A stretch of DNA of 64,000 nucleotides, from IMG/VR virus record IMGVR_UViG_3300045988_023748; one strand, 5' to 3'. This DNA is from a virus. Below the pieces are notes generated by a model, which ran no database searches, had not been told where the DNA came from, and saw only the letters and a list, made by a program, of their open reading frames with translations. A program made the position numbers and the translations under genes. Of this stretch, positions 1 through 16,287 are shown in pieces; position 1 is the stretch's first letter; each line of letters starts with the position of its first letter.

Positions 1-24
1 CCAGTAATCATGTAACAGTGATGT

Positions 25-49
25 GTGGGTTGGAGTCCCACTGCTTCCT
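25..49 (+). pseudogene. tRNA 3' fragment (T-arm gtggg/ttggagt/cccac plus acceptor 3' strand) at window edge
   Basis: T-stem/loop/T-stem plus 7-nt acceptor-like tail ending cttcctc. The 5' partner would lie upstream of the window, if it exists. Confidence 0.25.
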
Positions 50-75
50 CAAAACTGTTGGTCGTGTAACAGCGA

Positions 76-103
76 TCCCAGGGTTCGAATCCCTGTCCTT
101 CCT
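76..103 (+). pseudogene. second tandem tRNA 3' fragment (T-arm cagggttcgaatccctg plus tccttcc)
   Basis: Canonical TTCGAAT T-loop with a 5-bp stem. No complementary 5' acceptor within 90 nt upstream. It is a near-duplicate of the fragment at 25-49, and both are preceded by tgtaacag(t/c)g. Confidence 0.3.
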
Positions 104-128
104 CTTATTAATTTATTAATGAAAGATT

Positions 129-455
129 ATGAAATTGAAATTTAAACACGTTGATCAGCTCAGTAACAATAAGAAAGCAAGAGTAGCTTACAGAGTCATA
201 AGATTGTTACCAGAGGAACCTGTATTGAACGCATTCTTTGATTCCGAAGATGTCCCTGAGAACTTAGAACTTGCTGTTAGAGCCAGACATAAAGAAGCTG
301 AAGAGCTTATGAATGTTAATCTTCCAAAACTTCCTAGGAAGATGAAGAAGAGACTTAAACGTCTTATTGGGACATTATACAATGGTTATAGTCTAGCTGT
401 TGCTATATTAGACAATGAACGTGACACTATATCCAACGAAGTACAGCAAGGATAA
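129..455 (+). CDS. hypothetical protein (lysine-rich, 108 aa)
   Basis: ORF track. Follows the tRNA-like fragments. Confidence 0.4.
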   Translation: MKLKFKHVDQLSNNKKARVAYRVIRLLPEEPVLNAFFDSEDVPENLELAVRARHKEAEELMNVNLPKLPRKMKKRLKRLIGTLYNGYSLAVAILDNERDTISNEVQQG

Positions 456-702
456 CAGCCGTTTGCATGCTATTCTAATTAATAAGTTTAAGGGAAAGCG
501 CACACCTATATTATACGGGTATTTCTCATTTGTTAAAGAACAATTCTACATATCTAATACAGCACCTGGTGTGCGTCTCACGTATGAAATACGAACAGAA
601 CTTATTAAGGAGCTGAGAAGGTTTCACTGGAATTATTCCTATAACATGGATGCTAAAGCTTATAGAGATTGGCTAAAGTATCACAGTGTATTTAACTATT
701 AA
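415..702 (+). CDS. hypothetical protein (95 aa)
   Basis: ORF track. Overlaps the previous ORF in another frame. Confidence 0.3.
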   Translation: MNVTLYPTKYSKDNSRLHAILINKFKGKRTPILYGYFSFVKEQFYISNTAPGVRLTYEIRTELIKELRRFHWNYSYNMDAKAYRDWLKYHSVFNY

Positions 703-759
703 AATTTAATTATCGTATGAAGACAATCAATTTATCGGGACTAGATATGAAGAAATTCA

Positions 760-1107
760 TTGGTACTGGTTACAATCCAAGTCAGGACATTGTTAATATT
801 AATGGACGAGACGATGGAAGAACTAAACATGAAAGAATCAAGAATTCACAGAAACAAATTGTGGAGGAACCTAAAGAAAGACCAGAAGTATATTACTAGG
901 ATTAAACGGTCATTTCCGCATTGGTATATCTGTAGCAGTAATAAGTGGCGTAAAGCAATAAGCTGGACTGAACTTTATAATGCTAAGAATACCTTTAGGT
1001 TTAAAACCATGAGTACTCCCTGTAGTTGTGCAATATGTAAGGGAGAAAGATATAACAGATTGCAATATAAAAGGACTACTAAAGAACTGATAGCTTTATG
1101 TTCATAA
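760..1107 (+). CDS. hypothetical protein (115 aa, Cys-containing C-terminus)
   Basis: ORF track. Overlaps 717..899. Confidence 0.3.
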   Translation: MVLVTIQVRTLLILMDETMEELNMKESRIHRNKLWRNLKKDQKYITRIKRSFPHWYICSSNKWRKAISWTELYNAKNTFRFKTMSTPCSCAICKGERYNRLQYKRTTKELIALCS

Positions 1108-1120
1108 AATAGTATCGCCT

Positions 1121-1169
1121 AAGAAGACATACAGCAGGTGTCATGTTACATATGATTACAATGTCTTCT
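1121..1169 (+). repeat. conserved hairpin element (AAGAAGAC stem with ACAGCAG-containing loop) directly upstream of a tRNA 5' end
   Basis: Inverted repeat aagaagacat...atgtcttct. The same stem and loop motif recur at 6155-6196 and 7489-7528, each time ending 5-7 nt before a tRNA(-like) 5' acceptor. Confidence 0.6.
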
Positions 1170-1175
1170 GTTAAT

Positions 1176-1209
1176 GCCTCGATAGTTTAAGGGATAGAAC
1201 AGTGGCCTT
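1176..1209 (+). tRNA. 5' half of split tRNA-Arg(UCU)-like gene (acceptor, D-arm, 5' anticodon stem)
   Basis: gcctcga ta gttt aagggata gaac a gtggc ctt folds as acceptor plus D-arm plus anticodon-stem 5' strand. The acceptor is complementary (2 G-U) to tcggggt at 1986-1992, and gtggc is the exact complement of gccac at 1960-1964. Confidence 0.4.
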
Positions 1210-1955
1210 CATACGGCTGGTGAGTCCGCAACTCACTGTTATTAATTTCAACAAAACATCCATTTACTTGTTTAATTCGTAATAGATTCGTATCTTTGAG
1301 GTACGAATTTCTAATTTAGACGAATATGACAAGTAAATGGATTGACGAGAAAGCTCAGCTTGAGCATTTAATTTTGGTAGATAAGCTCAGTTATGAGGAA
1401 ATAGGAAGAAGATATGGTTGTTCAGGTACTAATATTAAAAATGTAGCGCGTAGACTTGGCATAGAGCTACCAGTTAAACGTAAAATTAATCCTAAAGAAA
1501 CATTCAATAGGAAGTACAAATACTGTTTAAACTGTGGTGCAGAACTTATTAGTTATAACGGAAGTTATGGCAAGTACTGCGGCCCTAAATGTCAATTTAA
1601 ACATGCTCATATGCTTGCTTACAAGAAGCTTTTGGACGGTGATGAAAGTATAATGAGAGCTAACTACTCTCCTAAGGCTTTCAAGAAAGATATTCTAAAG
1701 GAGCAAGGTGGAGTATGTGCTATATGTGGTATGAAGCCTATCTGGAATGGTAAAGAGCTGGTCTTTATCATTGATCATATAGACGGACATGCATCTAACA
1801 ATCGTAGAGATAATTTACGATGCATATGTCCTAACTGTGATTCACAGCTTGATACTTATAAGTCTAAGAACAAGTGTGGAGAACGTTCCTACTACCGTTA
1901 CCATAAAAATGAAATTAATAACAATAAGGATTAGGTTCGACTCCTAGTTCTTATA
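1210..1955 (+). mobile_element. ~745-nt insertion (candidate intron) in the tRNA anticodon loop carrying an HNH endonuclease gene and an internal TATCTTTG promoter box
   Basis: Lies between the two matching tRNA halves. Contains the HNH ORF 1326..1934, a TAnnTTTG -7 box at 1291-1298, and an extra T-arm-like piece at 1935-1958. Confidence 0.4.
1326..1934 (+). CDS. HNH homing endonuclease with N-terminal HTH
   Basis: HTH-like LSYEEIGRRYGCSGTNIKNVARRLGI, and an HNH/Zn motif CAICG...DHIDGHASNNRRDNLRCICPNCD. Confidence 0.7.
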   Translation: MTSKWIDEKAQLEHLILVDKLSYEEIGRRYGCSGTNIKNVARRLGIELPVKRKINPKETFNRKYKYCLNCGAELISYNGSYGKYCGPKCQFKHAHMLAYKKLLDGDESIMRANYSPKAFKKDILKEQGGVCAICGMKPIWNGKELVFIIDHIDGHASNNRRDNLRCICPNCDSQLDTYKSKNKCGERSYYRYHKNEINNNKD

Positions 1956-1993
1956 CTAAGCCACATATCTGCGTTCGAATCGCAGTCGGGGTA
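1956..1993 (+). tRNA. 3' half of split tRNA-Arg(UCU)-like gene (anticodon stem 3' strand, variable loop, T-arm, acceptor)
   Basis: ctaa gccac atat ctgcg ttcgaat cgcag tcggggt a. The T-arm is perfect, and both the acceptor and the anticodon stem pair with the 5' half at 1176-1209. A mature anticodon loop would read cttctaa (UCU). Confidence 0.4.
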
Positions 1994-2018
1994 CTTATTA
2001 ACTAATAATTAAAAATGT

Positions 2019-2228
2019 ATGATGCTGATTATTTATATTATCGGATGTGTAGTTGCTTTGATGGCTGTGTGTTTCTATGAATATCGTGACTATAAGAGAA
2101 ATTCTAATTACACTTACAACTTGTGTGACTTATTAATGGAATTAACTCTTGTAATAACTTCATGGATTGGTGTTATTGCAGTTATAGTATTTGTATCTCC
2201 AGGTATAGTGATGTTTAGAAAGAAGTAG
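2019..2228 (+). CDS. small membrane protein (tandem paralog 1)
   Basis: ORF track. Hydrophobic, with a SWIGVIAVIVFVS segment shared with the next ORF. Confidence 0.4.
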   Translation: MMLIIYIIGCVVALMAVCFYEYRDYKRNSNYTYNLCDLLMELTLVITSWIGVIAVIVFVSPGIVMFRKK

Positions 2229-2229
2229 T

Positions 2230-2457
2230 ATGTTGTTCTTATGGATTTATTCGGCTGGATGCATTGCTACTTTATTACGTACCATAATCGGATTAATTAT
2301 TGAGTACAAAGTAAGGCAAAGAAATAAAGAACGTTACGAGTTCGACTATGGAATGTTACTAGTTCTGACACTGTTTGTAATTAGCTCCTGGATAGGTGTA
2401 ATGATCGTAGTATCTAGTAGTAGCGAAGATGTGTACAGGTACTTAACTAAGAAGTAA
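2230..2457 (+). CDS. small membrane protein (tandem paralog 2)
   Basis: SSWIGVMIVVSSS is similar to the previous ORF. Tandem duplication. Confidence 0.4.
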   Translation: MLFLWIYSAGCIATLLRTIIGLIIEYKVRQRNKERYEFDYGMLLVLTLFVISSWIGVMIVVSSSSEDVYRYLTKK

Positions 2458-2646
2458 CAAAGCATATAAAATGAATAATAGGTTATTAGACCGGTAAATA
2501 ACCTTCCGTAAGCAATCGGACGTTGAGAGTTGATAGCCCTACGATAGTGTGGCTACATACGGGCTGTGTAGTGTAATCCGGGAGCACATCATCCTTGCAA
2601 GATGAAGGAGGAGTTCAAATCTCACACGGTCCACTATTAAACTAAA

Positions 2647-3153
2647 TTGAATAATATGAGTGAAGAACTACTTGAAGTATCATGTGAACAGTATGAAAAA
2701 GAATTGGAATCGCTTAACGAGGTAAAAGAAGAGGTTGATAATTTATTATCACACCGTAAAGCTCTCAAGTCTTTAAATTGGATGTTTTATGCTAATACAG
2801 TTGTATTAATTGCTACTGTAACTCACAGTATCTTATGTTATATAAATGAAGCATTCACTACTACTACACTTATATGTGCATTAGTAGTGTTATACTGTAA
2901 TTATTCAATCCATAAGTACTATAAGAGAAACAACGATAGGATAGCCATTATTAATAAAGTTGGGGAAAGCTACAATAGATGTCTTGAACTACTAGAATAC
3001 TTGATAGCGGTATTAAACGAACTTGACGAGACTGATAACCGAGACAAGTTTGTAGAAGACGTAGGAGAAGACTTAGCACTAGCCATTCTAGAATACGAGA
3101 TGTGTAAACAAGTATTTGCAAATGCAGTGCGCGAAGGTTACGAGAATGAGTAA
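2647..3153 (+). CDS. hypothetical membrane/coiled-coil protein (168 aa)
   Basis: ORF track. A central hydrophobic stretch with acidic termini. Confidence 0.45.
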   Translation: MNNMSEELLEVSCEQYEKELESLNEVKEEVDNLLSHRKALKSLNWMFYANTVVLIATVTHSILCYINEAFTTTTLICALVVLYCNYSIHKYYKRNNDRIAIINKVGESYNRCLELLEYLIAVLNELDETDNRDKFVEDVGEDLALAILEYEMCKQVFANAVREGYENE

Positions 3154-3162
3154 CTATATATG

Positions 3163-3236
3163 GTGTTATTAGCTCAGTTGGTTAGAGCACTTGATTGTGG
3201 TTCAAGAGGTCGTCAGTTCGATTCTGACATAACACC
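3163..3236 (+). tRNA. tRNA-His(GUG) with encoded G-1 at 3162
   Basis: Full cloverleaf: acceptor gtgttat/ataacac, D-arm gctc-agttggtta-gagc, anticodon arm cttga-ttGTGgt-tcaag, T-arm gtcag-ttcgatt-ctgac. An extra 5' G is opposite the C73 discriminator. Confidence 0.85.
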
Positions 3237-3319
3237 CTTAGTATCTTATAGACATAATATTAACTTTAAAATTAATTTCCAGTTTGTTTCATTGTTTATT
3301 ATTCACTAAGATACTATAA

Positions 3320-3511
3320 TGCCGAGGATGTGGTCTAGGTGAAAGTCCTAGAGGTGGATGTGGATACGTTGCGTGACACGGTAATGGGAGTAGGTGCGAT
3401 GGCAGTCTGTATGGCGCCTTTAAGATTGTACAGCACTGAAGGATTTGGGTTGTCCAAAGCAACTGGCGTAATAAAGCATAAAATCCAGTGAAGACGTATG
3501 TGTAGGCAGTA
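3320..3511 (+). ncRNA. GC-richer structured non-coding segment of unknown identity between tRNA-His and tRNA-Phe
   Basis: ~190 nt with no convincing + ORF and several local hairpins (ggtctaggtgaaagtcctagag). Preceded by a tataat box. The only track ORF here is on the minus strand and looks spurious. Confidence 0.3.
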
Positions 3512-3586
3512 TGGGACAGTAGCGCAGGTGGTCAGTTCGCGCTGGACTGAAAATCCAGAGATGATGGTTCGACTCCATCCTGTCCC
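3512..3586 (+). tRNA. tRNA-Phe(GAA)
   Basis: Acceptor gggacag/ctgtccc, anticodon arm ctgga-ctGAAaa-tccag, T-arm gatgg-ttcgact-ccatc. The D-arm is slightly atypical. Confidence 0.8.
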
Positions 3587-3619
3587 ACTATTTATTAACA
3601 AGATTAAATTATTAACAAG

Positions 3620-4138
3620 ATGAGTGATGTGTATTATATCATAGGTGGCGTTGCCTATGGTATCTTTATCTTGCAATTCATAATATCATGGGTTGCAGGT
3701 GAACTTGATGTTGATGTGGACTTCGATGGAGATGCCGATTTCGACATTGGTGATGTTGTTTCATTTAAAGGTCTTATTCACTTCCTGATGGGATTTGGAG
3801 GATGGACTTCTATTAAACAACTACTAGGTTATGAGATAACCTGGATTGATTGGTTAATAGGATTCTTTATAGGTCTTGTATTTGTGTTTATGCTGTATCA
3901 TTTATATAAATTCTGTATGAAATTACAGAACTTTCCAACCGACGAACCTCTTGTATACTTAGCAGGAAGACCAGCTAGAATATATGTTCGCTTAGATGAT
4001 AAACGCTATTTAGCTTTTATAAATATAAGTGGAGCATCTAGAGAAGTAGAACTCGTTTCTATTTCAGGTACTTCATATGCGGTTAATCAAGTAGTTACAA
4101 TTCGTGAGGTTATGGATAACACATTGTACATAGATTAA
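3620..4138 (+). CDS. NfeD-like membrane protein (N-terminal TM helices, C-terminal beta-barrel-like domain)
   Basis: Two or three hydrophobic segments, then an acidic linker and a soluble C-terminus. Sits immediately upstream of an SPFH gene, as in nfeD-stomatin and yuaF-floT operons. Confidence 0.5.
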   Translation: MSDVYYIIGGVAYGIFILQFIISWVAGELDVDVDFDGDADFDIGDVVSFKGLIHFLMGFGGWTSIKQLLGYEITWIDWLIGFFIGLVFVFMLYHLYKFCMKLQNFPTDEPLVYLAGRPARIYVRLDDKRYLAFINISGASREVELVSISGTSYAVNQVVTIREVMDNTLYID

Positions 4139-4149
4139 AGACTCATAAG

Positions 4150-6138: not shown

Positions 6139-6154
6139 CAATCTTTTACAGCTT

Positions 6155-6196
6155 AAGAAGACGAACAGCATTAATAATGATACAGCAAGGTCTTCT
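6155..6196 (+). repeat. conserved hairpin element, copy 2
   Basis: aagaagac...acagca...gtcttct. Ends 6 nt before the tRNA-like 5' acceptor ggaggta at 6203. Confidence 0.55.
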
Positions 6197-6202
6197 GTAA
6201 TT

Positions 6203-6234
6203 GGAGGTATGGGTGAGTGGTCTATACCAGGGTT
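6203..6234 (+). tRNA. 5' part of a type-II tRNA-like gene (acceptor plus 3-bp D-stem with long D-loop)
   Basis: ggaggta tg ggt gagtggtctat acc a gggtt. The acceptor pairs with tgcctcc at 6805-6811 (one G-U). Its 3' end overlaps the GTG start of ORF 6217. Confidence 0.3.
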
Positions 6235-6240
6235 AAAAAT

Positions 6241-6672
6241 ATGGATACAAAAAGGTTAGGAAATATAGGTGAAGCTCTAACTCAAGCAGAGTTTGTTATG
6301 CGAGGGATTCCTTTGTATTTACCATTTGGAGAGAATGAAAAATCTGACATGATTATTGATTTAAATGGTAAATTAAAAAGAGTTCAATGTAAAACATCAG
6401 AGCAATTTATAGATAATAAAATAGTGTGGAAGTTATCAAGTAGAACAACATCAGGTTGTCATCAATACACTAAAGATGAAGTTGATTTCTTTGCACTATA
6501 TAATTTAGAATCTAAGATACACATCTTAATACCTATAGAAGATTTAAATGGAAGATATTCATTAAAAGTATCAGTTCCTTTTAAAGAATCTAAAAATCAG
6601 AGTGACCCGATTAACTGGGAAGATTATACATTTGATAAGGTATTAAAAATTCCTAAACTAGATTGTAATTAA
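6241..6672 (+). CDS. PD-(D/E)XK-fold endonuclease-like protein (Hjc/restriction-endonuclease-like)
   Basis: Motifs GNIGEA...SDMIIDL...KRVQCKTS. Probable start at ATG 6241 (the track ORF opens at GTG 6217). Lies between the two halves of a split tRNA-like gene. Confidence 0.4.
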   Translation: MDTKRLGNIGEALTQAEFVMRGIPLYLPFGENEKSDMIIDLNGKLKRVQCKTSEQFIDNKIVWKLSSRTTSGCHQYTKDEVDFFALYNLESKIHILIPIEDLNGRYSLKVSVPFKESKNQSDPINWEDYTFDKVLKIPKLDCN

Positions 6673-6758
6673 GGAGAGAGTAACCTGCAAGGAGCAGGGA
6701 TTGCCTGCTAAGCAAATCGTGCATTTCGGTGTATTGGGTTCGAAACCCAACCTCTCCG
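6673..6758 (+). tRNA. tRNA-Ser(GCU)-like (86 nt, type II), possibly degenerate
   Basis: Acceptor 6/7 bp, anticodon arm with loop cTGCTaa, T-arm ttggg-ttcgaaa-cccaa, long variable region. The D region has 4 linker nt and the variable arm pairs poorly. Confidence 0.35.
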
Positions 6759-6812
6759 CTAAGACTCCGAACCTCTAAAAGGGTTCCGCTGGTTCGAATC
6801 CAGCTGCCTCCG
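6759..6812 (+). tRNA. 3' part of split type-II tRNA-like gene (hairpin, T-arm gctgg-ttcgaat-ccagc, acceptor tgcctcc)
   Basis: Perfect T-arm and an acceptor complementary to 6203-6209. No 5' partner within 100 nt. Confidence 0.3.
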
Positions 6813-6862
6813 CGCTGATTAATGAGAGTTGTGAAATTATTATTAACCTAATTACTAAAATT

Positions 6863-7150: not shown

Positions 7151-7154
7151 CGGA

Positions 7155-7228
7155 TGTCGGGTTCGTCTAATTGGATAGGACGCATGTCTCTCACACATGT
7201 AATACGGGTTCAAATCCCGTTGGGAATA
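7155..7228 (+). pseudogene. tRNA-like fragment (D-stem, anticodon arm catgt-ctCTCac-acatg, T-arm acggg-ttcaaat-cccgt) without a pairing acceptor stem
   Basis: Three arms fold, but the 3' tail tgggaat has no complementary 5' strand. The tail TTGGGAATAC recurs at 7298-7307. Confidence 0.3.
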
Positions 7229-7338
7229 CTATTAATGATTTATGCTTGTCTCATTGGCATACCAAGTTATTTGAAGAGATGGACACCTATCAATAACATT
7301 GGGAATACCTCAGCTGGCGGGAAGAGACAATACACTTA

Positions 7339-7377
7339 GGAACGGAAGTTGAATCCTGTGTCCGGGAACGGAAGTTA
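7339..7377 (+). repeat. direct repeat ggaacggaagtt x2 upstream of tRNA-Asp-like gene
   Basis: The 12-mer occurs at 7339 and 7366, 27 nt apart. Confidence 0.4.
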
Positions 7378-7399
7378 AGTGTAGGTAAGCTAGCTCTAT

Positions 7400-7471: not shown

Positions 7472-7488
7472 CAATCTTTGATTTGCAT

Positions 7489-7528
7489 AAGAAGACTACA
7501 GCAGTATAGTTTTATATCAAAGTCTTCT
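7489..7528 (+). repeat. conserved hairpin element, copy 3
   Basis: aagaagac tacagcag...a gtcttct. Ends 7 nt before tRNA-Thr. Confidence 0.55.
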
Positions 7529-7534
7529 GAAATT

Positions 7535-7607: not shown

Positions 7608-7689
7608 CGATGATAGTCTTAGGCTATTGTTAGATTATTTTTAACACACAGAGATGCTTATGAAGTTAACATGTTAATGCGAAATGTAA

Positions 7690-8993: not shown

Positions 8994-8997
8994 AATC

Positions 8998-10044: not shown

Positions 10045-10059
10045 TATTCCCTTAGTAAT

Positions 10060-10130
10060 TGGACTATGGTGTAACGGCAGCACAACAGGTTTTGGTTCTG
10101 TTTGTCCAGGTTCGAATCCTGGTGGTCCAA
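10060..10130 (+). tRNA. tRNA-Gln(UUG)
   Basis: U1-A72 acceptor tggacta/tggtcca, anticodon arm acagg-ttTTGgt-tctgt, T-arm ccagg-ttcgaat-cctgg. Confidence 0.8.
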
Positions 10131-10212
10131 CTACTAATTATGATTTTAATATGTTAATGAGTTTGTTATTAATAAGACCTTACTATTAATTGTGTTAGTC
10201 TTAAAGAATTAA

Positions 10213-10286
10213 GGGCTCATAGCTCAATTGGTTAGAGCAAAACACTCATAATGTTGAGGTTGTCAGTTCAAGTCTGGCTGGGCCCA
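10213..10286 (+). tRNA. tRNA with CAU anticodon (elongator Met or Ile2-type)
   Basis: gggctca/tgggccc acceptor, gctc-aattggtta-gagc, loop ctCATaa, T-arm gtcag-ttcaagt-ctggc. Confidence 0.8.
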
Positions 10287-10310
10287 CACAATTGATGATA
10301 AGAATCTTTT

Positions 10311-10577
10311 ATGAGGAAGGTAGTAGGTAGCATTGACGGCTACGATGTCATTTATGTGGAAGGCAAGAATGTAATATTCTGTAAGAATACTGCATTACCC
10401 TACCCATTGATTAAAAGTATTATTAGGGGAAGTGAATGTAGAACCACAATTGATGATAAGAATCTTACCATCACTCAAGATGGTTCAATCATTCAATTAG
10501 GTTGTTTAACTACAACCAGAGAGAATTGCGAGGCAATTATTAAGGAAGTAAATAAGATTAATAAACCTAACAAGTAA
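10311..10577 (+). CDS. hypothetical protein (88 aa)
   Basis: ORF track. Its stop overlaps the next start (TAATG). Confidence 0.4.
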   Translation: MRKVVGSIDGYDVIYVEGKNVIFCKNTALPYPLIKSIIRGSECRTTIDDKNLTITQDGSIIQLGCLTTTRENCEAIIKEVNKINKPNK

Positions 10578-12016: not shown

Positions 12017-12046
12017 CACTGACTTTGGGTTAAAACTAGAAAGGGA

Positions 12047-12289
12047 GTGGCAACACTCCTCTTTCTTTTATTTATAATGAAGTATCTAATAGTTATTTTA
12101 TTTATGTTGCTATGTAGTCCTAGTAATGATGCTAGAGACTTTCATGTTAGCGTAGTTGGAGAAGAGAGAGTAATTGAGTTTGAGAATAAATTCCCTCAAA
12201 TAGTTAAGAATGAAGCTGTATATATAGCATATCTTCAGCAATACTACAAGGGGAATGAAGATGAGTTCATTAAATTATTAAAACGGTAA
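12047..12289 (+). CDS. small secreted/membrane protein (80 aa)
   Basis: N-terminal hydrophobic signal-like segment. Confidence 0.4.
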   Translation: MATLLFLLFIMKYLIVILFMLLCSPSNDARDFHVSVVGEERVIEFENKFPQIVKNEAVYIAYLQQYYKGNEDEFIKLLKR

Positions 12290-12290
12290 T

Positions 12291-12371
12291 GGGGTAGTGG
12301 TGGAATGGTAGACACGTCAGTTTTAGGCACTGATGCCTTCGGGTGTGAGAGTTCGAGTCTCTCCTACCCTA
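12291..12371 (+). tRNA. tRNA-Leu(UAG), type II
   Basis: 81 nt. 3-bp D-stem gtg/cac with long D-loop, anticodon arm tcagt-ttTAGgc-actga, variable hairpin gcc-ttcg-ggt, T-arm gagag-ttcgagt-ctctc. Confidence 0.8.
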
Positions 12372-12402
12372 CTAGAGTAGTAACTTTAAAACTTATTTAA
12401 TT

Positions 12403-12570
12403 ATGGCAGATAATTTGAAAGAAATCTTTGAAGAAGCAGGTGAGTTTGCTGAAGCAAATAATAACAAGCTTACATTAGCCGATGCAGTGGTATTGATTGC
12501 TGAAGCATATGAATTAGGACTGAATACAGCAACGCAATTATTAAGTGTAAAAGATGCCAACAATAATTGA
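12403..12570 (+). CDS. small acidic protein (55 aa), not in ORF track
   Basis: ATG 12403 to TGA 12568-70, read directly from the sequence. The overlapping minus-strand track ORF looks like an antisense artefact. Confidence 0.35.
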   Translation: MADNLKEIFEEAGEFAEANNNKLTLADAVVLIAEAYELGLNTATQLLSVKDANNN

Positions 12571-13027
12571 CTTAAGACCTGAAATTGAAAAGGTTTCAGG
12601 AAGGATTGCAATAGTAGCTTTGTTAATACTATGTTTATGTATTAAAGTATATACTACTCAGTTCTGGCATGATATGAATGTTGACCACAGAGTTAAATGC
12701 AAAGTCATAGACAGAATAGTAGAGGATGAAACTATTACACAAGATGGTAATTCTACTACTAAGAAGGTAAATAAACTTGTATTACAAGCTGAAGGGTTTA
12801 ATAACACATTTAAGCTAGCCGTAGACACTCCAACCTGGAATAGGGCTATTATTAATGGTGTTAAGAATACATTCTATTTTAATATATCTAGAACCGAGTA
12901 CGGACCTTGGCACAATCAGCTTATATGTGTACTCTTACTCTTAGTAACTGGAAGTAGTGGCTGTTCGTTCATAGTGTATAGTGTGCGTTATATAACTAGT
13001 ATAATAAGTCATAACAATGGTAAATAA
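12554..13027 (+). CDS. membrane protein (157 aa)
   Basis: Two hydrophobic segments. Confidence 0.4.
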   Translation: MPTIIDLRPEIEKVSGRIAIVALLILCLCIKVYTTQFWHDMNVDHRVKCKVIDRIVEDETITQDGNSTTKKVNKLVLQAEGFNNTFKLAVDTPTWNRAIINGVKNTFYFNISRTEYGPWHNQLICVLLLLVTGSSGCSFIVYSVRYITSIISHNNGK

Positions 13028-13820
13028 TTTGAATGCGGAAGCTCTACGTAATGCCCTAGTAGTTGCTTCTATGGAGTATTGTAAGAAATACTTGGAAGGG
13101 CAGAATGTCGATAAGACAGAAGATATTAAAGCTCAGATTGCTAAGCTGGAAGCTAATGGATTAGGTAGAACTAAGAATGCTGAAGTACTTCGTACTCTAT
13201 TAACTGCTAAAGGTTCTAGTAAATCTAGAGATGAAATTGCCTCTCTTATTGACAGAATCAAGAAAGTTAGTCCCTCTTGTATGATAGTTCCTTATGATGA
13301 TTTCTTTAAAGTATTGAAGAAGTACAACTTAGCTTGTGGTCCCATTTCAACTTATAAGGGAGTTATCCCTGAAGAGAACATTGAAGCTATTGTAAAGGCC
13401 GGAGAGGAATTGCGTAAAATAAGGAATATTAATAACATGCAATGGGTTCCTAGAATAGATATAGATTCCGATATGCCAAAGAGTATAGTAAATGAAATCG
13501 TTGAATACTTCTCAAGATTCCCGTTTGTAGTGGACGATATCTCTTCTGGATGGCAATATATGCGTGCTATAGGACACCCAGAAGTTGAGGACAGTGTAAG
13601 CTTCAGTCCACTTACCTTAAATGACAGTGACTGGTGTATAGCAGCTCCCTATGATACTATGACAGATAATATAACTATCAGAATGTATTCAGGTAAAGAA
13701 GAGGCTAGAAAACGTCAGCTTGAGGATCCAATTGTCTTTAAGGCAAATGAAATAGGAGCAATTATTGCTACTATGTGGGATACTGAAGCTAAGGATAGCA
13801 TCTTTGATAAATATCGTTAA
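13017..13820 (+). CDS. hypothetical protein, paralog A (267 aa)
   Basis: Shares blocks with 17543..18364 (DDFFKVLKKYNLACGPISTYKGVIPEENIEAI vs EEDFINLNVKYGLVSGPLSYYKGDIPEDNLDEI; tails ...W..EA.D.IFD). Confidence 0.5.
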   Translation: MVNNLNAEALRNALVVASMEYCKKYLEGQNVDKTEDIKAQIAKLEANGLGRTKNAEVLRTLLTAKGSSKSRDEIASLIDRIKKVSPSCMIVPYDDFFKVLKKYNLACGPISTYKGVIPEENIEAIVKAGEELRKIRNINNMQWVPRIDIDSDMPKSIVNEIVEYFSRFPFVVDDISSGWQYMRAIGHPEVEDSVSFSPLTLNDSDWCIAAPYDTMTDNITIRMYSGKEEARKRQLEDPIVFKANEIGAIIATMWDTEAKDSIFDKYR

Positions 13821-13831
13821 CTTATGAATCC

Positions 13832-13939
13832 ATAAGAACATAAAGAGACAAAGCCAGACTAGCTAGCAACGAGGCGAACGGGAGGTATTAAGGTTACATC
13901 AGTGATGATGTAGACACGATGAGCTTTATGTTCTTATTA
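13832..13939 (+). ncRNA. long-range inverted repeat (14-bp stem ataagaacataaag / ctttatgttcttat) enclosing ~80 nt, immediately upstream of a tRNA
   Basis: Perfect 14-bp complementarity between 13832-13845 and 13926-13939. No ORF. Confidence 0.4.
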
Positions 13940-13941
13940 AT

Positions 13942-14016
13942 GGCGACATAGCTCATTTTGGTTAGAGCGTGATACTCATAATATCAAGGTTGGGTGTTCG
14001 AGTCACCTTCTCGCCA
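13942..14016 (+). tRNA. second CAU-anticodon tRNA (Met/Ile2)
   Basis: ggcgaca/tctcgcc acceptor (one C-C mismatch), anticodon arm tgata-ctCATaa-tatca, T-arm gggtg-ttcgagt-cacct. Confidence 0.75.
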
Positions 14017-14041
14017 CATTACTAATTAATACTTAAAGATT

Positions 14042-14443
14042 ATGTACGTAAAGTTTGTAAAAGACGATAAGACAATAGAGGAAGTATCAATCTCATCAGA
14101 GATGATTCCATTCCCTACAGACACAGTGGTGCTAGAAGCTGGCAAATTTACTGTAGAATCCAGAGAGTATGATATACTTGATGGAACTTGTACAGTTATC
14201 CTGGACCAGCAAATCACTTGGACAGAACATCCTCAAGAGTATAATGATGCAATGCTTGCATACAAGAAGCGTTGGAATAATACAATTGATTTGTCATGTG
14301 AAGACTTTTTTAAGATGAAGCAGCTTGTGCAGAGGGGTACCAAACTACAAGCAGTTAAGCATGTAAAGGAGTCTACCAAATGCGGTTTGAAAGAAGCCAA
14401 AGATTTTGTTGATACTTATTGTGATTATGTATTAAATGACTAG
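14042..14443 (+). CDS. protein with ribosomal L7/L12 C-terminal-domain-like segment
   Basis: C-terminus QAVKHVKESTKCGLKEAKDFVDTY resembles the bL12 CTD motif (...GLGLKEAKDLVE...). Confidence 0.5.
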   Translation: MYVKFVKDDKTIEEVSISSEMIPFPTDTVVLEAGKFTVESREYDILDGTCTVILDQQITWTEHPQEYNDAMLAYKKRWNNTIDLSCEDFFKMKQLVQRGTKLQAVKHVKESTKCGLKEAKDFVDTYCDYVLND

Positions 14444-14705
14444 AAGTAGACGTAAAATTCCTATTGTTAAAGGACCTAAAGTTAAACGCAATTGGTATAA
14501 CCGAAGGGTTAAGAGACACCAAAGGCAACAGACTAGAGATATTCTAACACTTAAAGATATCCTAGACTATGAGATTTCTTCTAGTAGGGAGATTGTGAAC
14601 GATTATGATGTATGTGATTATAAATTCGATTATAGGTTTCTAACTCCGTTTATGAAGAGACATGGTTCCTATGGTGAATATGCAAAGAAAGTATTAAGGA
14701 AATGA
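14436..14705 (+). CDS. small highly basic protein (89 aa)
   Basis: N-terminus MTRSRRKIPIVKGPKVKRNWYNRRVKRHQRQQTRD. Start overlaps the previous stop. Confidence 0.45.
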   Translation: MTRSRRKIPIVKGPKVKRNWYNRRVKRHQRQQTRDILTLKDILDYEISSSREIVNDYDVCDYKFDYRFLTPFMKRHGSYGEYAKKVLRK

Positions 14706-14766
14706 AATGGTTGTATCGTCTATTAATCAATTGGATTGATAGATTAAATGAAGAGCAGTGTGAAAT

Positions 14767-14928
14767 ATGATGGTTTTAAGATGTGTATTGGTAACTTTAG
14801 CTGCAATGTCCCTAGGAAGTGCAGTTCTAGCAATGATATGGAATGCCAATGATAAATTCATTAAAGTAATGTTCTCCATATCAATGGTAACTACAATAAT
14901 GTTACTTCTTCTTGCATGTATTGTATAA
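14767..14928 (+). CDS. small membrane protein (~53 aa), not in ORF track
   Basis: ATGATGGTTTTAAGATGTGTA... encodes two hydrophobic helices, read manually. Confidence 0.3.
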   Translation: MMVLRCVLVTLAAMSLGSAVLAMIWNANDKFIKVMFSISMVTTIMLLLLACIV

Positions 14929-14935
14929 TAAGGAT

Positions 14936-15020
14936 GGCGCAGTGTCGGAACTGGTATACGAAACGCACTTAAAATGCGTTGCCCTTTATGGGATTGAGGG
15001 TTCGATTCCCTTCTGCGTCA
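14936..15020 (+). tRNA. tRNA-Leu(UAA), type II
   Basis: 85 nt. ggcgcag/ctgcgtc acceptor, anticodon arm acgca-ctTAAaa-tgcgt, variable hairpin ccc-tttat-ggg, T-arm gaggg-ttcgatt-ccctt. Confidence 0.75.
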
Positions 15021-15039
15021 CAGATGTATCTAAGCTCTG

Positions 15040-15082
15040 GTGGGCAGAAGTGCTCGTGCGGGTTCGACTCCCGTTCTGGCCA
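15040..15082 (+). pseudogene. tRNA 3' fragment (T-arm gcggg-ttcgact-cccgt plus acceptor tctggcc) lacking a 5' half
   Basis: Only ~45 nt separate it from the preceding tRNA, and there is no complementary acceptor strand. Confidence 0.35.
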
Positions 15083-15100
15083 CAATTAAAATTATGTTGT

Positions 15101-15259
15101 ATGCATCAGTGTGATTATTGTTGTTGGTATAATCCAGCAGGGTATTGTGATTGTCCGTTAGTAATGAGAAAGAAGGCTTGTAAGTCTGCTATCAAGACTA
15201 AAGAAAGGACTGAAAATAAGGTAGTAACGTCTAAAGCAGTTAATAATGAAGATTTATGA
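15101..15259 (+). CDS. small Cys-rich protein (52 aa); N-terminal part of track ORF 14912..15259 is spurious (covers tRNAs)
   Basis: MHQCDYCCWYNPAGYCDCPLVMRKKACK... Confidence 0.3.
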   Translation: MHQCDYCCWYNPAGYCDCPLVMRKKACKSAIKTKERTENKVVTSKAVNNEDL

Positions 15260-15743
15260 ATTTCTAAGAAAGGTTACTAAAATTGAATTGTCACAAGTCA
15301 AATATGTATTCGGTGACTGGGATTTAGCTTTAGAGGAATACGTCAATAAATGTGAAAGGCATCGTGCGCCCAATGTAATGGCATTATTAAAACTGTCATC
15401 TACATTGGGCGAACTTGTTGATTTATACAGAGGTCTTGAACTTAAGAGATATCCCATTCCAGAAGCCGAGCTAGAGGCTAAGAAACAACGATATGACACT
15501 TTAATGGAATATTGTTTATGTGGCAATGGAGGACATTTATCTATGTTTGAGAGAATAACTAACGGTTCTAGAATGGAACAGAGATTAAACTTTATTTACG
15601 AAATGCAATTAATGGCTAATGCTATACAAGGTAAAGATGTTGGCAGAAGGAAACTCCTTCGTAACTTCAGAGAAGGGAAATTCCATGACTCCTCTAATCA
15701 AATCGGGACAAAAGCATGTCTTAAGTCCAGTAACCCTAGATAA
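15246..15743 (+). CDS. hypothetical protein (165 aa)
   Basis: ORF track. Overlaps the next ORF by ~125 nt in another frame. Confidence 0.4.
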   Translation: MKIYEFLRKVTKIELSQVKYVFGDWDLALEEYVNKCERHRAPNVMALLKLSSTLGELVDLYRGLELKRYPIPEAELEAKKQRYDTLMEYCLCGNGGHLSMFERITNGSRMEQRLNFIYEMQLMANAIQGKDVGRRKLLRNFREGKFHDSSNQIGTKACLKSSNPR

Positions 15744-15903
15744 AGTAGAAGTGGGAGATATTGTCTTTTGTAAAGTTAAAGGTAGATACTATACTCACTT
15801 AGTCAAAGCTAAGGGAGATAGAGGAGTCCTTATAGGCAACAATCATGGTAAGATTAATGGATGGACTAAATCCGTGTTTGGCAAAGTGACTAAAATATTG
15901 TAA
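15619..15903 (+). CDS. S24 (LexA/UmuD)-like peptidase domain protein
   Basis: GNSMTPLIKSGQKHVLSPV...VGDIVFCKVKGRYYTHLVKAKG matches the S24 GDSM...GD...K architecture. Confidence 0.5.
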   Translation: MLYKVKMLAEGNSFVTSEKGNSMTPLIKSGQKHVLSPVTLDKVEVGDIVFCKVKGRYYTHLVKAKGDRGVLIGNNHGKINGWTKSVFGKVTKIL

Positions 15904-15905
15904 TA

Positions 15906-16079
15906 TGAAAGAGCTATTAAAGAATTGGATACTGAAACTAACGTGTCGGCATAATTGGAAGGAACTAAAGCACATGAATGTATACATGAATGATGAAGAA
16001 ATTCCTTATTCCCATGTATACCTTTTGGTATGCACTAAGTGTGGTAAGTTTAAGCAAGTGAAAATGAAACCAGGCTAGA
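15906..16079 (+). CDS. small Zn-ribbon-like protein (57 aa), not in track
   Basis: ...CRHNWKELKHMNVY...CTKCGKFKQVK, read manually. Confidence 0.3.
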
Positions 16080-16215
16080 GACTGGATTATAATTAACTCA
16101 GGCGATGACAACTAAAGTAGAGTTGAGCGTATGTAATAAGACGTGCTCCGAAGTACAAGGAGTGGGGTGGTTGCAGTATACCTCTTTAGGGACATAAGTC
16201 TTAATCACTGCTCCA

Positions 16216-16287
16216 ACGCCATTAACAATCGTTTTGATCGGGTCCACAGTACGCGTAGTGGCAGGGGTTCGAATCCTCTGATGGCGA
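16216..16287 (+). pseudogene. degenerate tRNA-like element (T-arm agggg-ttcgaat-cctct, acceptor cgccatt/gatggcg) in a GC-richer non-coding block
   Basis: The acceptor and T-arm pair, but the D and anticodon arms do not fold canonically. Confidence 0.25.

What the first reader, a model, noticed from the sequence alone, without database searches (positions are those of the whole stretch)
1..16287. tRNA region littered with 3'-half tRNA fragments and degenerate tRNA-like elements
Besides about 12 foldable tRNAs, there are at least six orphan or degenerate pieces. Two tandem fragments lie at 25-49 and 76-103, sharing tgtaacag(t/c)g and the cttcctc tail. There is a T-arm at 1935-1958, a three-arm fragment at 7155-7228 whose tail TTGGGAATAC recurs at 7298-7307, a fragment at 15040-15082, and a degenerate element at 16216-16287. 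Such scars are what repeated homing-endonuclease-driven gene conversion or illegitimate recombination in a tRNA array would leave. They could also be processed tRNA-like regulatory elements.
Basis: seen in the sequence. Interest (0 to 1): 0.55.

Follow-up and report, generated by a model that had tools for sequence, protein, structure and literature searches.

The report
Homing-endonuclease scars in phage tRNA array
The stray tRNA pieces in this gut-phage tRNA cluster are real, and most are leftovers of selfish nuclease genes that jumped into tRNA genes, sometimes bringing a spare tRNA or a miniature tRNA-like hairpin.

Summary
The pieces exist, but they are not six equivalent fragments. Bases 1-50 are the end of a complete tRNA-Ser(UGA) cut by the window edge. 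Bases 51-103, 1956-1993, 6759-6812 and 15036-15082 are true 3' remnants of tRNA genes that are intact in close relatives.

A homing-endonuclease gene lies between each pair, inserted in the anticodon loop:
- an HNH gene (1326-1934) in tRNA-Arg(UCU);
- an I-Ssp6803I-family PD-(D/E)XK gene (6241-6672) in tRNA-Ser(GCU).

No group I ribozyme is present. The PD-(D/E)XK cassette carries its own atypical replacement tRNA-Ser(GCU) at 6673-6758. That minihelix abuts C35 of the 3' half and covaries across relatives.

Bases 7156-7228 are a chimera of two tRNA-Glu genes, made by a 1.2-kb deletion through their T-arms. Bases 16218-16287 are a conserved tRNA-shaped element of unknown role.

The intron-less cassette architecture is a new variant of a known kind.

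The parts
1..50 (+). 3' end of a complete tRNA-Ser(UGA), cut by the window start. In relatives this is the replacement copy that follows a PD-(D/E)XK endonuclease gene.
   Evidence: Window 1-110 is 100% identical to L001 6602-6711. ARAGORN calls tRNA-Ser(tga) at L001 6559-6651. L001 6165-6557 encodes a PDDEXK-like ORF, preceded by the 5' half of the resident tRNA-Ser.
51..103 (+). 3' remnant of the resident tRNA-Ser(UGA), running from the anticodon loop (AAA) through the variable arm, the T-arm (79-95) and the acceptor strand to the discriminator.
   Evidence: It matches the 3' part of the intact tRNA-Ser(tga) in L002 (6609-6699), L003, L004 and L030. It also gives an antisense plastid trnS-like Rfam hit at 50-103.
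1120..1170 (+). Hairpin TAAGAAGAC...GTCTTCTG ending 5 nt upstream of the tRNA-Arg 5' half. One of three copies in the window.
   Evidence: 3 matches against 0 expected. The arms differ in L015 but still pair (AAGAAGGCA..TGCCTTCT).
1176..1210 (+). 5' half of tRNA-Arg(UCU), positions 1-35: acceptor GCCTCGA, D-arm, anticodon stem strand GTGGC, loop CTTC.
   Evidence: It pairs 7/7 with the acceptor strand at 1986-1992. The same tRNA is contiguous in L001, L002, L003, L030 and L031. ARAGORN in intron mode rebuilds tRNA-Arg(tct) at 1176-1994 with a 746-nt insert.
1211..1325 (+). Leader of the HNH cassette. It holds the hairpin GGTGAGT..ACTCAC(T) and a long stem (1254-1345) that buries the HNH start codon.
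   Evidence: Fold energy -46.7 kcal/mol, z = -6.7. The leader start A[T/C]ACGG[C/T]TGGTGAG is conserved in L015, L069 and L070.
1326..1934 (+). HNH homing-endonuclease gene (202 aa) inserted in the anticodon loop of tRNA-Arg(UCU).
   Evidence: Pfam HNH_3 and Endonuclease_7. It is absent from the intact alleles and deleted in L027 and L004. A 57% identical homolog lies 8 nt upstream of an intact tRNA-Arg(tct) in crAss-like phage cr116_1, and there is a 27% match to T5 hegA/F-TflIV.
1924..1955 (+). Acceptor+T-arm minihelix (ATAAGGA TTAGG TTCGACT CCTAG TTCTTAT) plus discriminator A. It overlaps the HNH stop codon and abuts the 3' half.
   Evidence: Folds as a 12-bp helix, z = -4.3. Across 5 variants 60/60 cells are paired and 5 of 12 pairs show changes on both sides; slid controls give 42-57%. 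No other perfect minihelix was found in the window plus 31 loci.
1956..1993 (+). 3' half of tRNA-Arg(UCU): CTAA, anticodon stem strand GCCAC, ATAT, T-arm (1969-1985), acceptor strand TCGGGGT, discriminator A.
   Evidence: The T-arm and acceptor are identical to the intact allele of L001.
6154..6197 (+). Second copy of the TAAGAAGAC...GTCTTCTG hairpin, upstream of the tRNA-Ser(GCU) 5' half.
6203..6234 (+). 5' half of the resident tRNA-Ser(GCU): acceptor GGAGGTA, D-arm, anticodon stem strand GGGTT. Loop bases 32-34 are missing.
   Evidence: It pairs 7/7 with 6805-6811. The tRNA is contiguous in L004 (7693-7782), L002, L021 and most of the more distant relatives.
6241..6672 (+). PD-(D/E)XK homing-endonuclease gene of the I-Ssp6803I family (143 aa).
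   Evidence: Pfam PF11645, E = 4e-20. A profile of five such ORFs hits PDB 2OST at E = 5.6e-6. It is absent from the intact alleles, and other relatives carry different endonuclease genes at the same site.
6673..6758 (+). Cassette-borne replacement tRNA-Ser(GCU), atypical in having a 5-bp D stem with a 5-nt loop. It starts right after the endonuclease stop codon, and its discriminator G abuts the 3' half.
   Evidence: ARAGORN calls tRNA-Ser(gct) at 6673-6759 at a relaxed threshold. The fold is a cloverleaf with a variable arm, z = -3.1. A stand-alone homolog at L023 3245-3333 has compensatory changes in the D hairpin and the anticodon stem.
6759..6812 (+). 3' half of the resident tRNA-Ser(GCU): CTAA, GACTC, variable arm, T-arm (6788-6804), acceptor strand TGCCTCC, discriminator G.
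7156..7228 (+). Chimeric, probably dead tRNA. The 5' acceptor strand, D-arm, anticodon arm (CUC) and T-loop come from tRNA-Glu(CUC). They are joined within the T-stem to the 3' acceptor strand of tRNA-Glu(UUC).
   Evidence: Relatives have both Glu genes about 1.2 kb apart with a 295-aa ORF between them (L002 12485-12558 and 13707-13780). The acceptor GTCGGGT/TGGGAAT does not pair. Rfam tRNA score 41.8 bits.
7299..7308 (+). Second copy of TTGGGAATAC, the 3' end of tRNA-Glu(UUC). Probably an older 3'-end scar.
   Evidence: 2 matches against 0.1 expected. It is conserved in relatives, and L001 has about 200 nt more between the two copies.
14936..15021 (+). Complete tRNA-Leu(UAA), allele A.
15036..15082 (+). 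3' remnant of tRNA-Leu(UAA) allele B, from the 3' strand of the anticodon stem to the discriminator.
   Evidence: 98% identical to the 3' part of the complete tRNA-Leu(taa) of L030, L033 and L027. L032 and L035 carry allele A only, without the remnant.
16218..16287 (+). Conserved tRNA-shaped element: 7-bp acceptor CGCCATT/GATGGCG, canonical T-arm (16263-16279), short D-like hairpin, and a stem with a 10-nt loop holding the palindrome TACGCGTA. Its function is unknown.
   Evidence: 94-100% identical in L027 and L032-L035, with wobble-preserving changes. It is not a tRNA by ARAGORN or Rfam. Its positional ortholog in L011 is called tRNA-Val(cac) with a 13-nt insert.

Best explanation
The window opens inside the ~25-gene tRNA array of an uncultivated crAss-like phage from the human gut. 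The orphan tRNA pieces are footprints of two processes.

(A) Homing-endonuclease cassettes have inserted into the DNA that encodes the anticodon loop of resident tRNA genes.
- Each insertion leaves a 5' half and a 3' half flanking the cassette.
- This happened in tRNA-Arg(UCU) (HNH cassette) and tRNA-Ser(GCU) (PD-(D/E)XK cassette).
- It also happened in tRNA-Ser(UGA), just upstream of the window.
- The cassettes hold no ribozyme. They are an endonuclease ORF that runs straight into a tRNA-type structure.
- That structure is either a complete, sequence-divergent replacement tRNA (6673-6758, and the tRNA ending at base 50) or a bare acceptor/T-arm minihelix (1924-1955).

(B) Recombination between similar tRNA sequences made the other pieces.
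- It deleted 1.2 kb between two tRNA-Glu genes, giving the chimera at 7156-7228.
- It joined two tRNA-Leu(UAA) alleles, leaving the remnant at 15036-15082.

What is shown: the anatomy, the intact 'empty-site' alleles in relatives, the endonuclease family assignments, the absence of a group I core, and the covariation of the minihelix.

What is inferred:
- The endonucleases cut the uninterrupted tRNA gene, and the cassette is copied in by break repair during co-infection.
- The split tRNA-Arg is non-functional.
- The tRNA or minihelix at the cassette's 3' end serves the cassette, most likely as an RNase P / RNase Z processing handle for the endonuclease mRNA inside a tRNA precursor transcript.
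For: Halves match:
- The 5' and 3' halves pair 7/7 in the acceptor stem.
- ARAGORN in intron mode rebuilds tRNA-Arg(tct) at 1176-1994.

Empty sites exist in relatives:
- tRNA-Arg(tct) is contiguous in 27 of the related loci.
- tRNA-Ser(gct) is contiguous in L002, L004, L021 and others.
- tRNA-Ser(tga) is contiguous in L002, L004 and L030.
- Flanking DNA is 95-100% identical between split and intact genomes.

Endonuclease identity:
- Pfam HNH_3 and PF11645; PDB 2OST hit.
- HNH homologs lie next to an intact tRNA-Arg(tct) in cr116_1 and L023.
- In L065 an HNH homolog lies between Arg halves together with its own tRNA-Arg copy.

Three different cassettes occupy the tRNA-Ser(gct) loop in relatives:
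- a PD-(D/E)XK gene with a replacement tRNA (as in the window);
- a second PD-(D/E)XK gene, 55% identical, with a minihelix;
- a different HNH gene with a replacement tRNA.

The minihelix belongs to the cassette, not to the tRNA:
- L069 has the HNH gene and an intact minihelix, but its 3' half has lost the acceptor strand.
- L027 and L004 keep the leader and minihelix after deletion of the ORF.
- L004 has in addition a 1-nt T-loop deletion in the 3' half.

Family-wide coupling in IMG/VR:
- Of 56 non-redundant PF11645-type loci, 21 have a tRNA starting within -40 to +10 nt of the ORF stop. Often the ORF stops at the tRNA's own U8-A9-G10.
- In 16 of 75 loci the endonuclease gene lies between two orphan halves of one tRNA.

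The Glu and Leu junctions are explained base by base.
Against: - No cleavage assay exists, so the target sites are inferred only from the insertion sites.
- The split Arg halves are undecayed in the window, L005, L029 and L015.
- Their anticodon-stem strands (GTGGC/GCCAC; GCACA/TGTGC in L015) differ from the local intact allele yet stay complementary. That could mean selection for a working RNA rather than co-conversion from a donor.
- The minihelix ends exactly one base before C35 of the loop in all six variants. This precision is not required by a simple 'mRNA handle' role.
- No endonuclease gene lies at the Leu junction or at 16218-16287, so those two are not directly tied to homing.
Confidence: 0.8

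Rival explanations
1. The interrupted tRNA genes are ordinary group I intron-containing tRNA genes, like cyanobacterial tRNA-fMet with I-Ssp6803I. The intron splices itself out and the tRNAs stay functional.
For: - The insertions lie in the anticodon loop and carry an I-Ssp6803I-family gene.
- Related phages do have real tRNA group I introns with such genes. L147 tRNA-Ser(UGA) scores 61 bits on Rfam Intron_gpI. tRNA-Asn in L089, L100, L102 and L104 shows sequence stretches that I recall as typical of the Azoarcus-type tRNA intron core; their inserts follow a U and end in G.
Against: - There was no Intron_gpI hit in the window, even at E <= 5-10 on short stretches. The same model does detect L147, which serves as a positive control.
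- The PD-(D/E)XK cassette leaves 6 nt before the ORF and 0 nt after it, ahead of the replacement tRNA.
- The HNH cassette leaves 115 nt plus the minihelix, and its ORF-less derivative is only about 112 nt.
- The insert ends in A or C, not G.
- The 5' half of tRNA-Ser(GCU) lacks loop bases 32-34.
Confidence: 0.02
2. The split tRNA-Arg is rejoined by proteins.
- The minihelix directs RNase Z (and RNase P) to cut exactly before C35.
- Another nuclease trims the 5' half.
- The phage kinase-phosphatase and a ligase seal the anticodon loop.

This would be ribozyme-free tRNA splicing in a phage.
For: - The minihelix discriminator is immediately followed by C35 in all six variants.
- The minihelix covaries.
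- The halves are undecayed and complementary.
- The phage tRNA genes lack an encoded CCA.
- The phage encodes a CCA-adding-type enzyme (56637-57431), a T4-like PNKP (57826-58752) and an ATP-dependent ligase (52059-53261).
Against: - No candidate exists for the 5' cut.
- L069 keeps the cassette and minihelix although its 3' half cannot form an acceptor stem.
- L004 has a T-loop deletion in the 3' half.
- Sister cassettes carry a whole replacement tRNA, which suggests the insertion does destroy the resident gene.
- The split tRNA-Ser(GCU) in the window lacks three loop bases.
- The ligase scores better as a DNA ligase.
Confidence: 0.06
3. The pieces are attL/attR-type duplications left by integrase-mediated insertion of mobile elements into tRNA genes.
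For: Duplicated 3' parts of tRNA genes are the classic signature of integrative elements (established knowledge).
Against: - No integrase was found among the neighbouring ORFs.
- The inserts are 0.45-0.75 kb, single-gene, and encode homing endonucleases.
- The tRNA-Arg and tRNA-Ser(GCU) cases are split genes with no duplicated segment.
Confidence: 0.01
4. The fragments are purpose-built tRNA-like RNAs, either regulatory or decoys against host anticodon nucleases, rather than scars.
For: - The minihelix (1924-1955) and the element at 16218-16287 are conserved, with pairing-preserving changes.
- The palindrome in the loop of 16218-16287 is kept as a palindrome in L034 (TACGCGTA becomes TACATGTA).
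Against: - The 3' remnants at 51-103, 1956-1993, 6759-6812 and 15036-15082 are simply the ends of genes that are intact in relatives. They are absent where no insertion or allele swap occurred.
- The Glu chimera is unique to the window.
Confidence: 0.1

Closest known systems
I-Ssp6803I and the Synechocystis tRNA-fMet group I intron (PDB 2OST)
   Same: - The same endonuclease family: PF11645 at 4e-20, and a profile hit to 2OST at 5.6e-6.
- The gene lies in the anticodon loop of a tRNA gene.
   Different: - There is no ribozyme around the ORF, so the RNA cannot splice itself.
- The cassette brings a replacement tRNA or a minihelix instead.
- Intron-borne versions do occur in related phages (L147; and L089, L100, L102, L104).
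Free-standing homing endonucleases of phage tRNA clusters: T4 SegB (PMC2330249) and T5 hegA/F-TflIV
   Same: - Endonuclease genes embedded in a phage tRNA array.
- They are present or absent among close relatives.
- SegB cuts inside tRNA genes and drives preferential inheritance of the region (PMC2330249).
- The window HNH protein is 27% identical to T5 hegA over 90% of its length.
   Different: - SegB and the T5 genes lie between tRNA genes. Here the gene lies inside a tRNA gene and splits it.
- SegB recognises T-arm DNA, whereas here the insertion site is the anticodon loop.
- The coupling to a replacement tRNA or a minihelix was not found in any of the paper searches.
Genes in pieces made by endonuclease insertion (the split nrdA of Aeromonas phage Aeh1, from memory; 'fractured genes', PMC2677866)
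   Same: - An intron-less endonuclease gene splits a host gene into two adjacent pieces.
- The same window has NrdD in pieces around an HNH gene and a GIY-YIG gene.
   Different: - The known cases are protein genes whose pieces still work as subunits or through split inteins.
- Here the split gene is a tRNA. No rejoining route is evident, and function is supplied, if at all, by a cassette-borne copy.
Split and intron-containing tRNA genes of Archaea (Nanoarchaeum; bulge-helix-bulge introns)
   Same: tRNA halves with complementary acceptor and anticodon stems, interrupted in the anticodon loop.
   Different: - No bulge-helix-bulge motif was noticed when the junction sequences were read. No dedicated search was run.
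- The context is a bacterial phage.
- The halves are adjacent and separated by a selfish gene, and intact alleles exist in close relatives.

Membership tests
Group I intron in a tRNA anticodon loop | The intervening sequence lies in the anticodon loop. | tested here: met
   The inserts fall at 35/36 in tRNA-Arg and between position 31 and C35 in tRNA-Ser(GCU).
Group I intron in a tRNA anticodon loop | A catalytic core is detectable (Rfam RF00028, or conserved core sequence stretches). | tested here: not met
   No hit at E <= 5-10. The positive control L147 scores 61 bits. The non-coding space is 6+0 nt in one cassette and 115+22 nt in the other.
Group I intron in a tRNA anticodon loop | The 5' exon ends in U and the intron ends in G. 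| tested here: not met
   The junctions are CTTC|ATACGG and TTCTTATA|CTAA. The tRNA-Asn inserts in L100 and L102 follow a U and end ...AAAG|.
Homing endonuclease gene (mobile, selfish) | Encodes a nuclease of a known homing-endonuclease family. | tested here: met
   HNH_3 and Endonuclease_7; PF11645; PDB 2OST.
Homing endonuclease gene (mobile, selfish) | Present or absent among otherwise near-identical genomes, with an uninterrupted target allele. | tested here: met
Homing endonuclease gene (mobile, selfish) | The protein cleaves the empty allele near the insertion site. | not testable with these tools
   This needs an in-vitro cleavage assay on the tRNA-Arg allele of L001 and the tRNA-Ser(GCU) allele of L004.
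Canonical tRNA | 7-bp acceptor, D-arm, anticodon arm with a 7-nt loop, and T-arm, in one contiguous gene. | tested here: not met
   - 51-103, 1956-1993, 6759-6812 and 15036-15082 lack the 5' parts.
- 7156-7228 has no acceptor pairing.
- 16218-16287 has a 10-nt loop and is called by neither ARAGORN nor Rfam.
- Exception: 6673-6758 passes at a relaxed threshold as tRNA-Ser(gct).
Integrase att-site duplication in a tRNA gene | An integrase gene plus a direct repeat of the tRNA 3' part flanking the element. | tested here: not met
   No integrase domain was found in the neighbouring ORFs. The tRNA-Arg and tRNA-Ser(GCU) cases are split genes, not duplications.

The most novel reading that the evidence does not exclude
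The split tRNA-Arg(UCU), and the split tRNA-Ser(GCU) of relatives that carry the minihelix cassette, are still expressed as working tRNAs.
- The minihelix acts as a built-in RNase Z / RNase P guide that frees the 3' half exactly at C35.
- The halves are then sealed by the phage kinase-phosphatase and a ligase.

This would be protein-only, ribozyme-free removal of a selfish gene from a bacterial-virus tRNA.
Probability: 0.06. Interest if true: 0.9.

Novelty: new variant of a known kind. Interest (0 to 1): 0.55.

Why it matters
- It shows how selfish nuclease genes reshape a phage's own tRNA set. They knock out some tRNAs, swap in divergent copies of others, and leave pieces that annotation tools either miss or miscount.
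- tRNA anticodon loops are also the targets of bacterial anti-phage nucleases. Cassette-driven replacement of tRNA alleles could therefore feed that arms race.
- The endonuclease-plus-tRNA module is common in uncultivated phages. Often the nuclease ORF ends at the tRNA's own U8-A9-G10.
- Its stripped-down minihelix form points to an undescribed link between tRNA processing and the expression of mobile nuclease genes.
- The enzymes are candidate site-specific nucleases for tRNA genes.

Tried and rejected
- **Group I intron.** Rfam searches of 1-23000 and of 1100-2050 found none. The same model detects a relative's tRNA intron.
- **Chance.** The 10-mer repeat, the hairpin motif and the minihelix all exceed their shuffled or slid controls. 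No other perfect minihelix was found in about 700 kb of related DNA.
- **15042-15082 as a second designed minihelix.** Rejected. It is simply the variable arm and 3' end of allele B of tRNA-Leu.
- **RNase P RNA for the conserved element at 3318-3512.** Rejected. The GAAAGUCC-like loop varies among relatives and Rfam gives no hit.
- **tmRNA or Y-RNA-like identity for 16100-16290.** No Rfam hit even at E <= 10.
- **Close annotated phage genome.** None at the DNA level in INPHARED for this region.
- **Single-protein search for HNH relatives.** It found only four loci. DNA patterns were more useful.
- **Literature.** Six of the seven paper searches looked for split phage tRNA genes, replacement-tRNA cassettes or minihelices; none found a description.

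Full report
**Setting**

All 12 tRNA genes that ARAGORN finds in the window are on the + strand; 10 of them lie in 1-16287. Rfam adds a weak tRNA at 7161-7228.

The region has no close annotated relative at the DNA level. The DNA polymerase I is 41-45% identical to those of crAss-like phages. IMG/VR holds 31 related contigs of about 95-170 kb from human gut samples. They carry about 25 tRNA genes each, including an amber suppressor. Nine of them (L001-L005, L027, L029-L031) are 93-100% identical to the window in the SPFH protein. The others are 57-74% identical.

These relatives settle most of the questions below.

Yes for the sequences, but only partly for their description.

- T-arm-type hairpins are concentrated in the array. 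Of the 25 + strand hits, 21 lie in 1-21335, and 18 of those have a TTCGA/TTCAA loop.
- Eight of those 18 belong to no ARAGORN tRNA. They start at 79, 1931, 1969, 6734, 6788, 7204, 15058 and 16263.
- The 10-mer TTGGGAATAC occurs twice, against 0.1 expected.
- Bases 1-50 are not a fragment. Window 1-110 is identical to L001 6602-6711, where a complete tRNA-Ser(UGA) ends at the position of window base 50.

**tRNA-Arg(UCU) is split by an HNH gene**

*The two halves.*
- The acceptor strand at 1986-1992 pairs 7/7 with GCCTCGA at 1176-1182.
- A D-arm, the stem strand GTGGC and the loop start CTTC follow the 5' acceptor strand.
- The 3' piece begins CTAA GCCAC.
- Joined, the halves give the loop CUUCUAA, and ARAGORN in intron mode calls tRNA-Arg(tct) at 1176-1994 with a 746-nt insert.

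*The insert.*
- It holds a 202-aa HNH endonuclease ORF at 1326-1934.
- The ORF's start codon is buried in a very stable stem (z = -6.7).

*Relatives.*
- L001, L002, L003, L030, L031 and most of the more distant loci carry the same tRNA uninterrupted.
- L005 and L029 share the insertion.
- L027 and L004 have it with the ORF deleted, leaving about 112 nt.
- Homologs of the HNH protein lie next to an intact tRNA-Arg(UCU) in crAss-like phage cr116_1 (57% identity) and in L023.
- In L065 a homolog lies between Arg halves together with a whole tRNA-Arg copy.
- The protein is also distantly related to T5 hegA/F-TflIV, the HNH endonuclease annotated in the T5 and Bf23 records; one T5 record lists a tRNA-Met under the same match.

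**The 'T-arm at 1935-1958' is a minihelix**

*Structure.*
- Bases 1924-1954 read ATAAGGA-TTAGG-TTCGACT-CCTAG-TTCTTAT: seven acceptor-like pairs stacked on a T-arm.
- A discriminator A follows, and then at once C35 of the 3' half.

*Other occurrences.*
- The same module ends a different cassette, a PD-(D/E)XK gene in the tRNA-Ser(GCU) of L001, L005, L029 and L027. That cassette is also followed by CTAA.
- The module recurs with altered but still pairing stems in L049 and L015.

*Covariation.*
- Over five variants all 60 cells pair.
- Five of 12 pairs change on both sides.
- Slid controls pair at 42-57%.

*Which unit it belongs to.* It belongs to the cassette rather than to the tRNA.
- L069 keeps the HNH gene and the minihelix, although its 3' half has lost the acceptor strand.
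- The ORF-less remnant in L027 and L004 also keeps the minihelix.

**tRNA-Ser(GCU) is split by a PD-(D/E)XK gene that carries its own tRNA**

*The halves and the gene between them.*
- GGAGGTA at 6203 pairs 7/7 with 6805-6811.
- Between the halves lies a 143-aa ORF of Pfam PF11645 (E = 4e-20).
- A profile of this ORF and its relatives hits PDB 2OST, which I recall to be I-Ssp6803I.
- The tRNA is uninterrupted in L004, L002, L021 and most of the more distant loci.

*The cassette-borne tRNA at 6673-6758.*
- It starts directly after the stop codon.
- It has the anticodon loop CUGCUAA, a long variable arm and an odd 5-bp D stem.
- It folds well (z = -3.1), and ARAGORN calls it tRNA-Ser(gct) at a relaxed threshold.
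- Its stand-alone homolog in L023 differs by compensatory changes in the D and anticodon stems.
- It is therefore a real, if atypical, tRNA.
- Its discriminator abuts CTAA of the resident 3' half.

*Other cassettes at the same loop in relatives.*
- L025 has a different HNH gene with its own tRNA-Ser.
- L001-type genomes have the second PD-(D/E)XK gene (55% identical) with the minihelix.

*The same layout explains 51-103.* In L001 the order is: 5' half of tRNA-Ser(UGA), a PD-(D/E)XK ORF, a replacement tRNA, then the 3' remnant.

**These are not group I introns**

- Rfam finds no Intron_gpI in the window, even with lax thresholds on short stretches.
- The same model scores 61 bits on the tRNA-Ser(UGA) intron of a related phage, L147.
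- tRNA-Asn genes of other phages (L089, L100, L102, L104) show stretches that I recall as typical of the Azoarcus-type tRNA intron core.
- In the window there is no room for a ribozyme, and the junctions lack the U...G rule.

**Recombination products**

*The Glu chimera.*
- Relatives have tRNA-Glu(CUC) and tRNA-Glu(UUC) 1.2 kb apart, with a 295-aa ORF between them.
- The window joins the first gene, up to the T-loop, to the CCCGT-TGGGAATA end of the second.
- The 5' strand GTCGGGT therefore has no partner.

*The second TTGGGAATAC.* It is conserved in relatives and probably marks an older 3' end.

*The tRNA-Leu junction.*
- At 14936-15082 the window has a complete tRNA-Leu(UAA) allele A.
- After 14 nt comes the 3' part of allele B.
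- Relatives carry one allele or the other.

**The element at 16218-16287**

- It is 94-100% conserved in five relatives, with changes that keep pairing.
- It has a good acceptor stem and T-arm.
- Its D-like hairpin is short, and its 10-nt loop holds a palindrome.
- ARAGORN and Rfam reject it.
- Its positional ortholog in the more distant L011 is called tRNA-Val(cac) with a 13-nt insert.
- None of these arrays has a tRNA-Val.
- It may be a decayed tRNA or a separate small RNA. I could not decide.

**Wider pattern**

A profile search of IMG/VR returned 75 loci with PF11645-type genes, and all but four have tRNA genes within 1.5 kb.

- In 16 loci the gene lies between two orphan halves of one tRNA. 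Seven more have a whole tRNA plus a remnant.
- Of 56 non-redundant loci, 21 have a tRNA starting within -40 to +10 nt of the ORF stop.
- That distance is very often exactly -10, because the ORF stops at the tRNA's own U8-A9-G10.
- The unit 'endonuclease ORF running into a tRNA' is thus general, and the minihelix looks like its minimal form.

**Mechanism**

*Shown:*
- the anatomy;
- the empty-site alleles;
- the endonuclease family assignments;
- the absence of a ribozyme;
- the covariation of the minihelix.

*Inferred:*
- The endonucleases cut the uninterrupted tRNA gene, and the cassette is copied in by repair during co-infection, as shown for T4 SegB (PMC2330249).
- The short changed tracts next to the cassette (anticodon stem GTGGC/GCCAC against TGGGA/CCCCA) are co-converted donor sequence.
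- The split tRNA-Arg is dead.
- The terminal tRNA or minihelix is cut by RNase P and RNase Z. This would release or limit the endonuclease mRNA, because the stop codon lies inside the structure.

*The unexcluded alternative.* The halves could be rejoined by proteins. The phage encodes a CCA-adding-type enzyme, a T4-like kinase-phosphatase and a ligase. I rate this at about 6%.

**Novelty**

Already known:
- endonuclease genes in phage tRNA clusters (SegB; the T5 enzymes);
- a PD-(D/E)XK homing endonuclease inside a tRNA group I intron (I-Ssp6803I).

Not found in any of six paper searches:
- intron-less insertion into the anticodon loop;
- the replacement-tRNA cassette;
- the covarying minihelix.

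I class this as a new variant of a known kind, of moderate interest.

Noticed in passing
window 3318-3512: A ~195-nt non-coding element lies directly upstream of tRNA-Phe. It is almost invariant across all 30 related loci that cover it, including those with only 57-74% protein identity in the neighbouring gene. It has no Rfam match, and an RNase P-like motif in it is not conserved. Similar conserved leaders precede tRNA-Ala (2478-2560) and tRNA-Met (13832-13940).
   Followed up: partly
window 1120-1170, 6154-6197, 7488-7529: The hairpin TAAGAAGAC...ACAGCA...GTCTTCTG occurs three times, against 0 expected. Each copy ends 5 nt before a tRNA 5' end. The arms differ in L015 but still pair.
   Followed up: partly
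window 44444-48044: The anaerobic ribonucleotide reductase NrdD appears to be in pieces (44444-45493 and 46320-47123). An HNH/NUMOD4 endonuclease gene (45635-46210) lies between the pieces, and a GIY-YIG gene (47262-48044) follows. More endonuclease-like ORFs lie at 29335-30084, 41704-42483 and 42490-43668.
   Followed up: no
window 52059-53261, 56637-57431, 57826-58752: The phage encodes an ATP-dependent ligase, a CCA-adding/poly(A)-polymerase-type nucleotidyltransferase and a T4-like polynucleotide kinase-phosphatase. Together these look like a tRNA maturation and repair set.
   Followed up: no
L106, L128, L130, L131, L134, L136 and other IMG/VR loci: Many phage PF11645-type endonuclease ORFs end inside the next tRNA gene. 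They use the tRNA's own U8-A9-G10 (TAG, sometimes TAA) as the stop codon, so the tRNA's 5' acceptor strand encodes the last residues.
   Followed up: partly
L147 1405-2108; L089, L100, L102 and L104, about 1350-2055: Other phages carry real group I introns with PD-(D/E)XK genes in tRNA-Ser(UGA) and tRNA-Asn(GUU). Rfam detects only the L147 intron, probably because the ORF splits the core in the others.
   Followed up: partly
L089 2179-2462; L147 1-128; L023 1805-2292: There are tmRNA-like genes in phage contigs next to tRNA arrays. L089 scores 61.5 bits on Rfam tmRNA, L147 has a cut-off match (44.2 bits, just under the 47-bit gathering score) at its locus end, and ARAGORN calls a tmRNA in L023.
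   Followed up: no
window and all related loci: The arrays cover every amino acid except valine. The only Val-like candidate is the aberrant element at 16218-16287 and its L011 ortholog.
   Followed up: partly
L001 14224-14430: L001 has about 200 extra, G+C-richer bases between the two TTGGGAATAC copies after tRNA-Glu(UUC). These bases are absent from the window.
   Followed up: no
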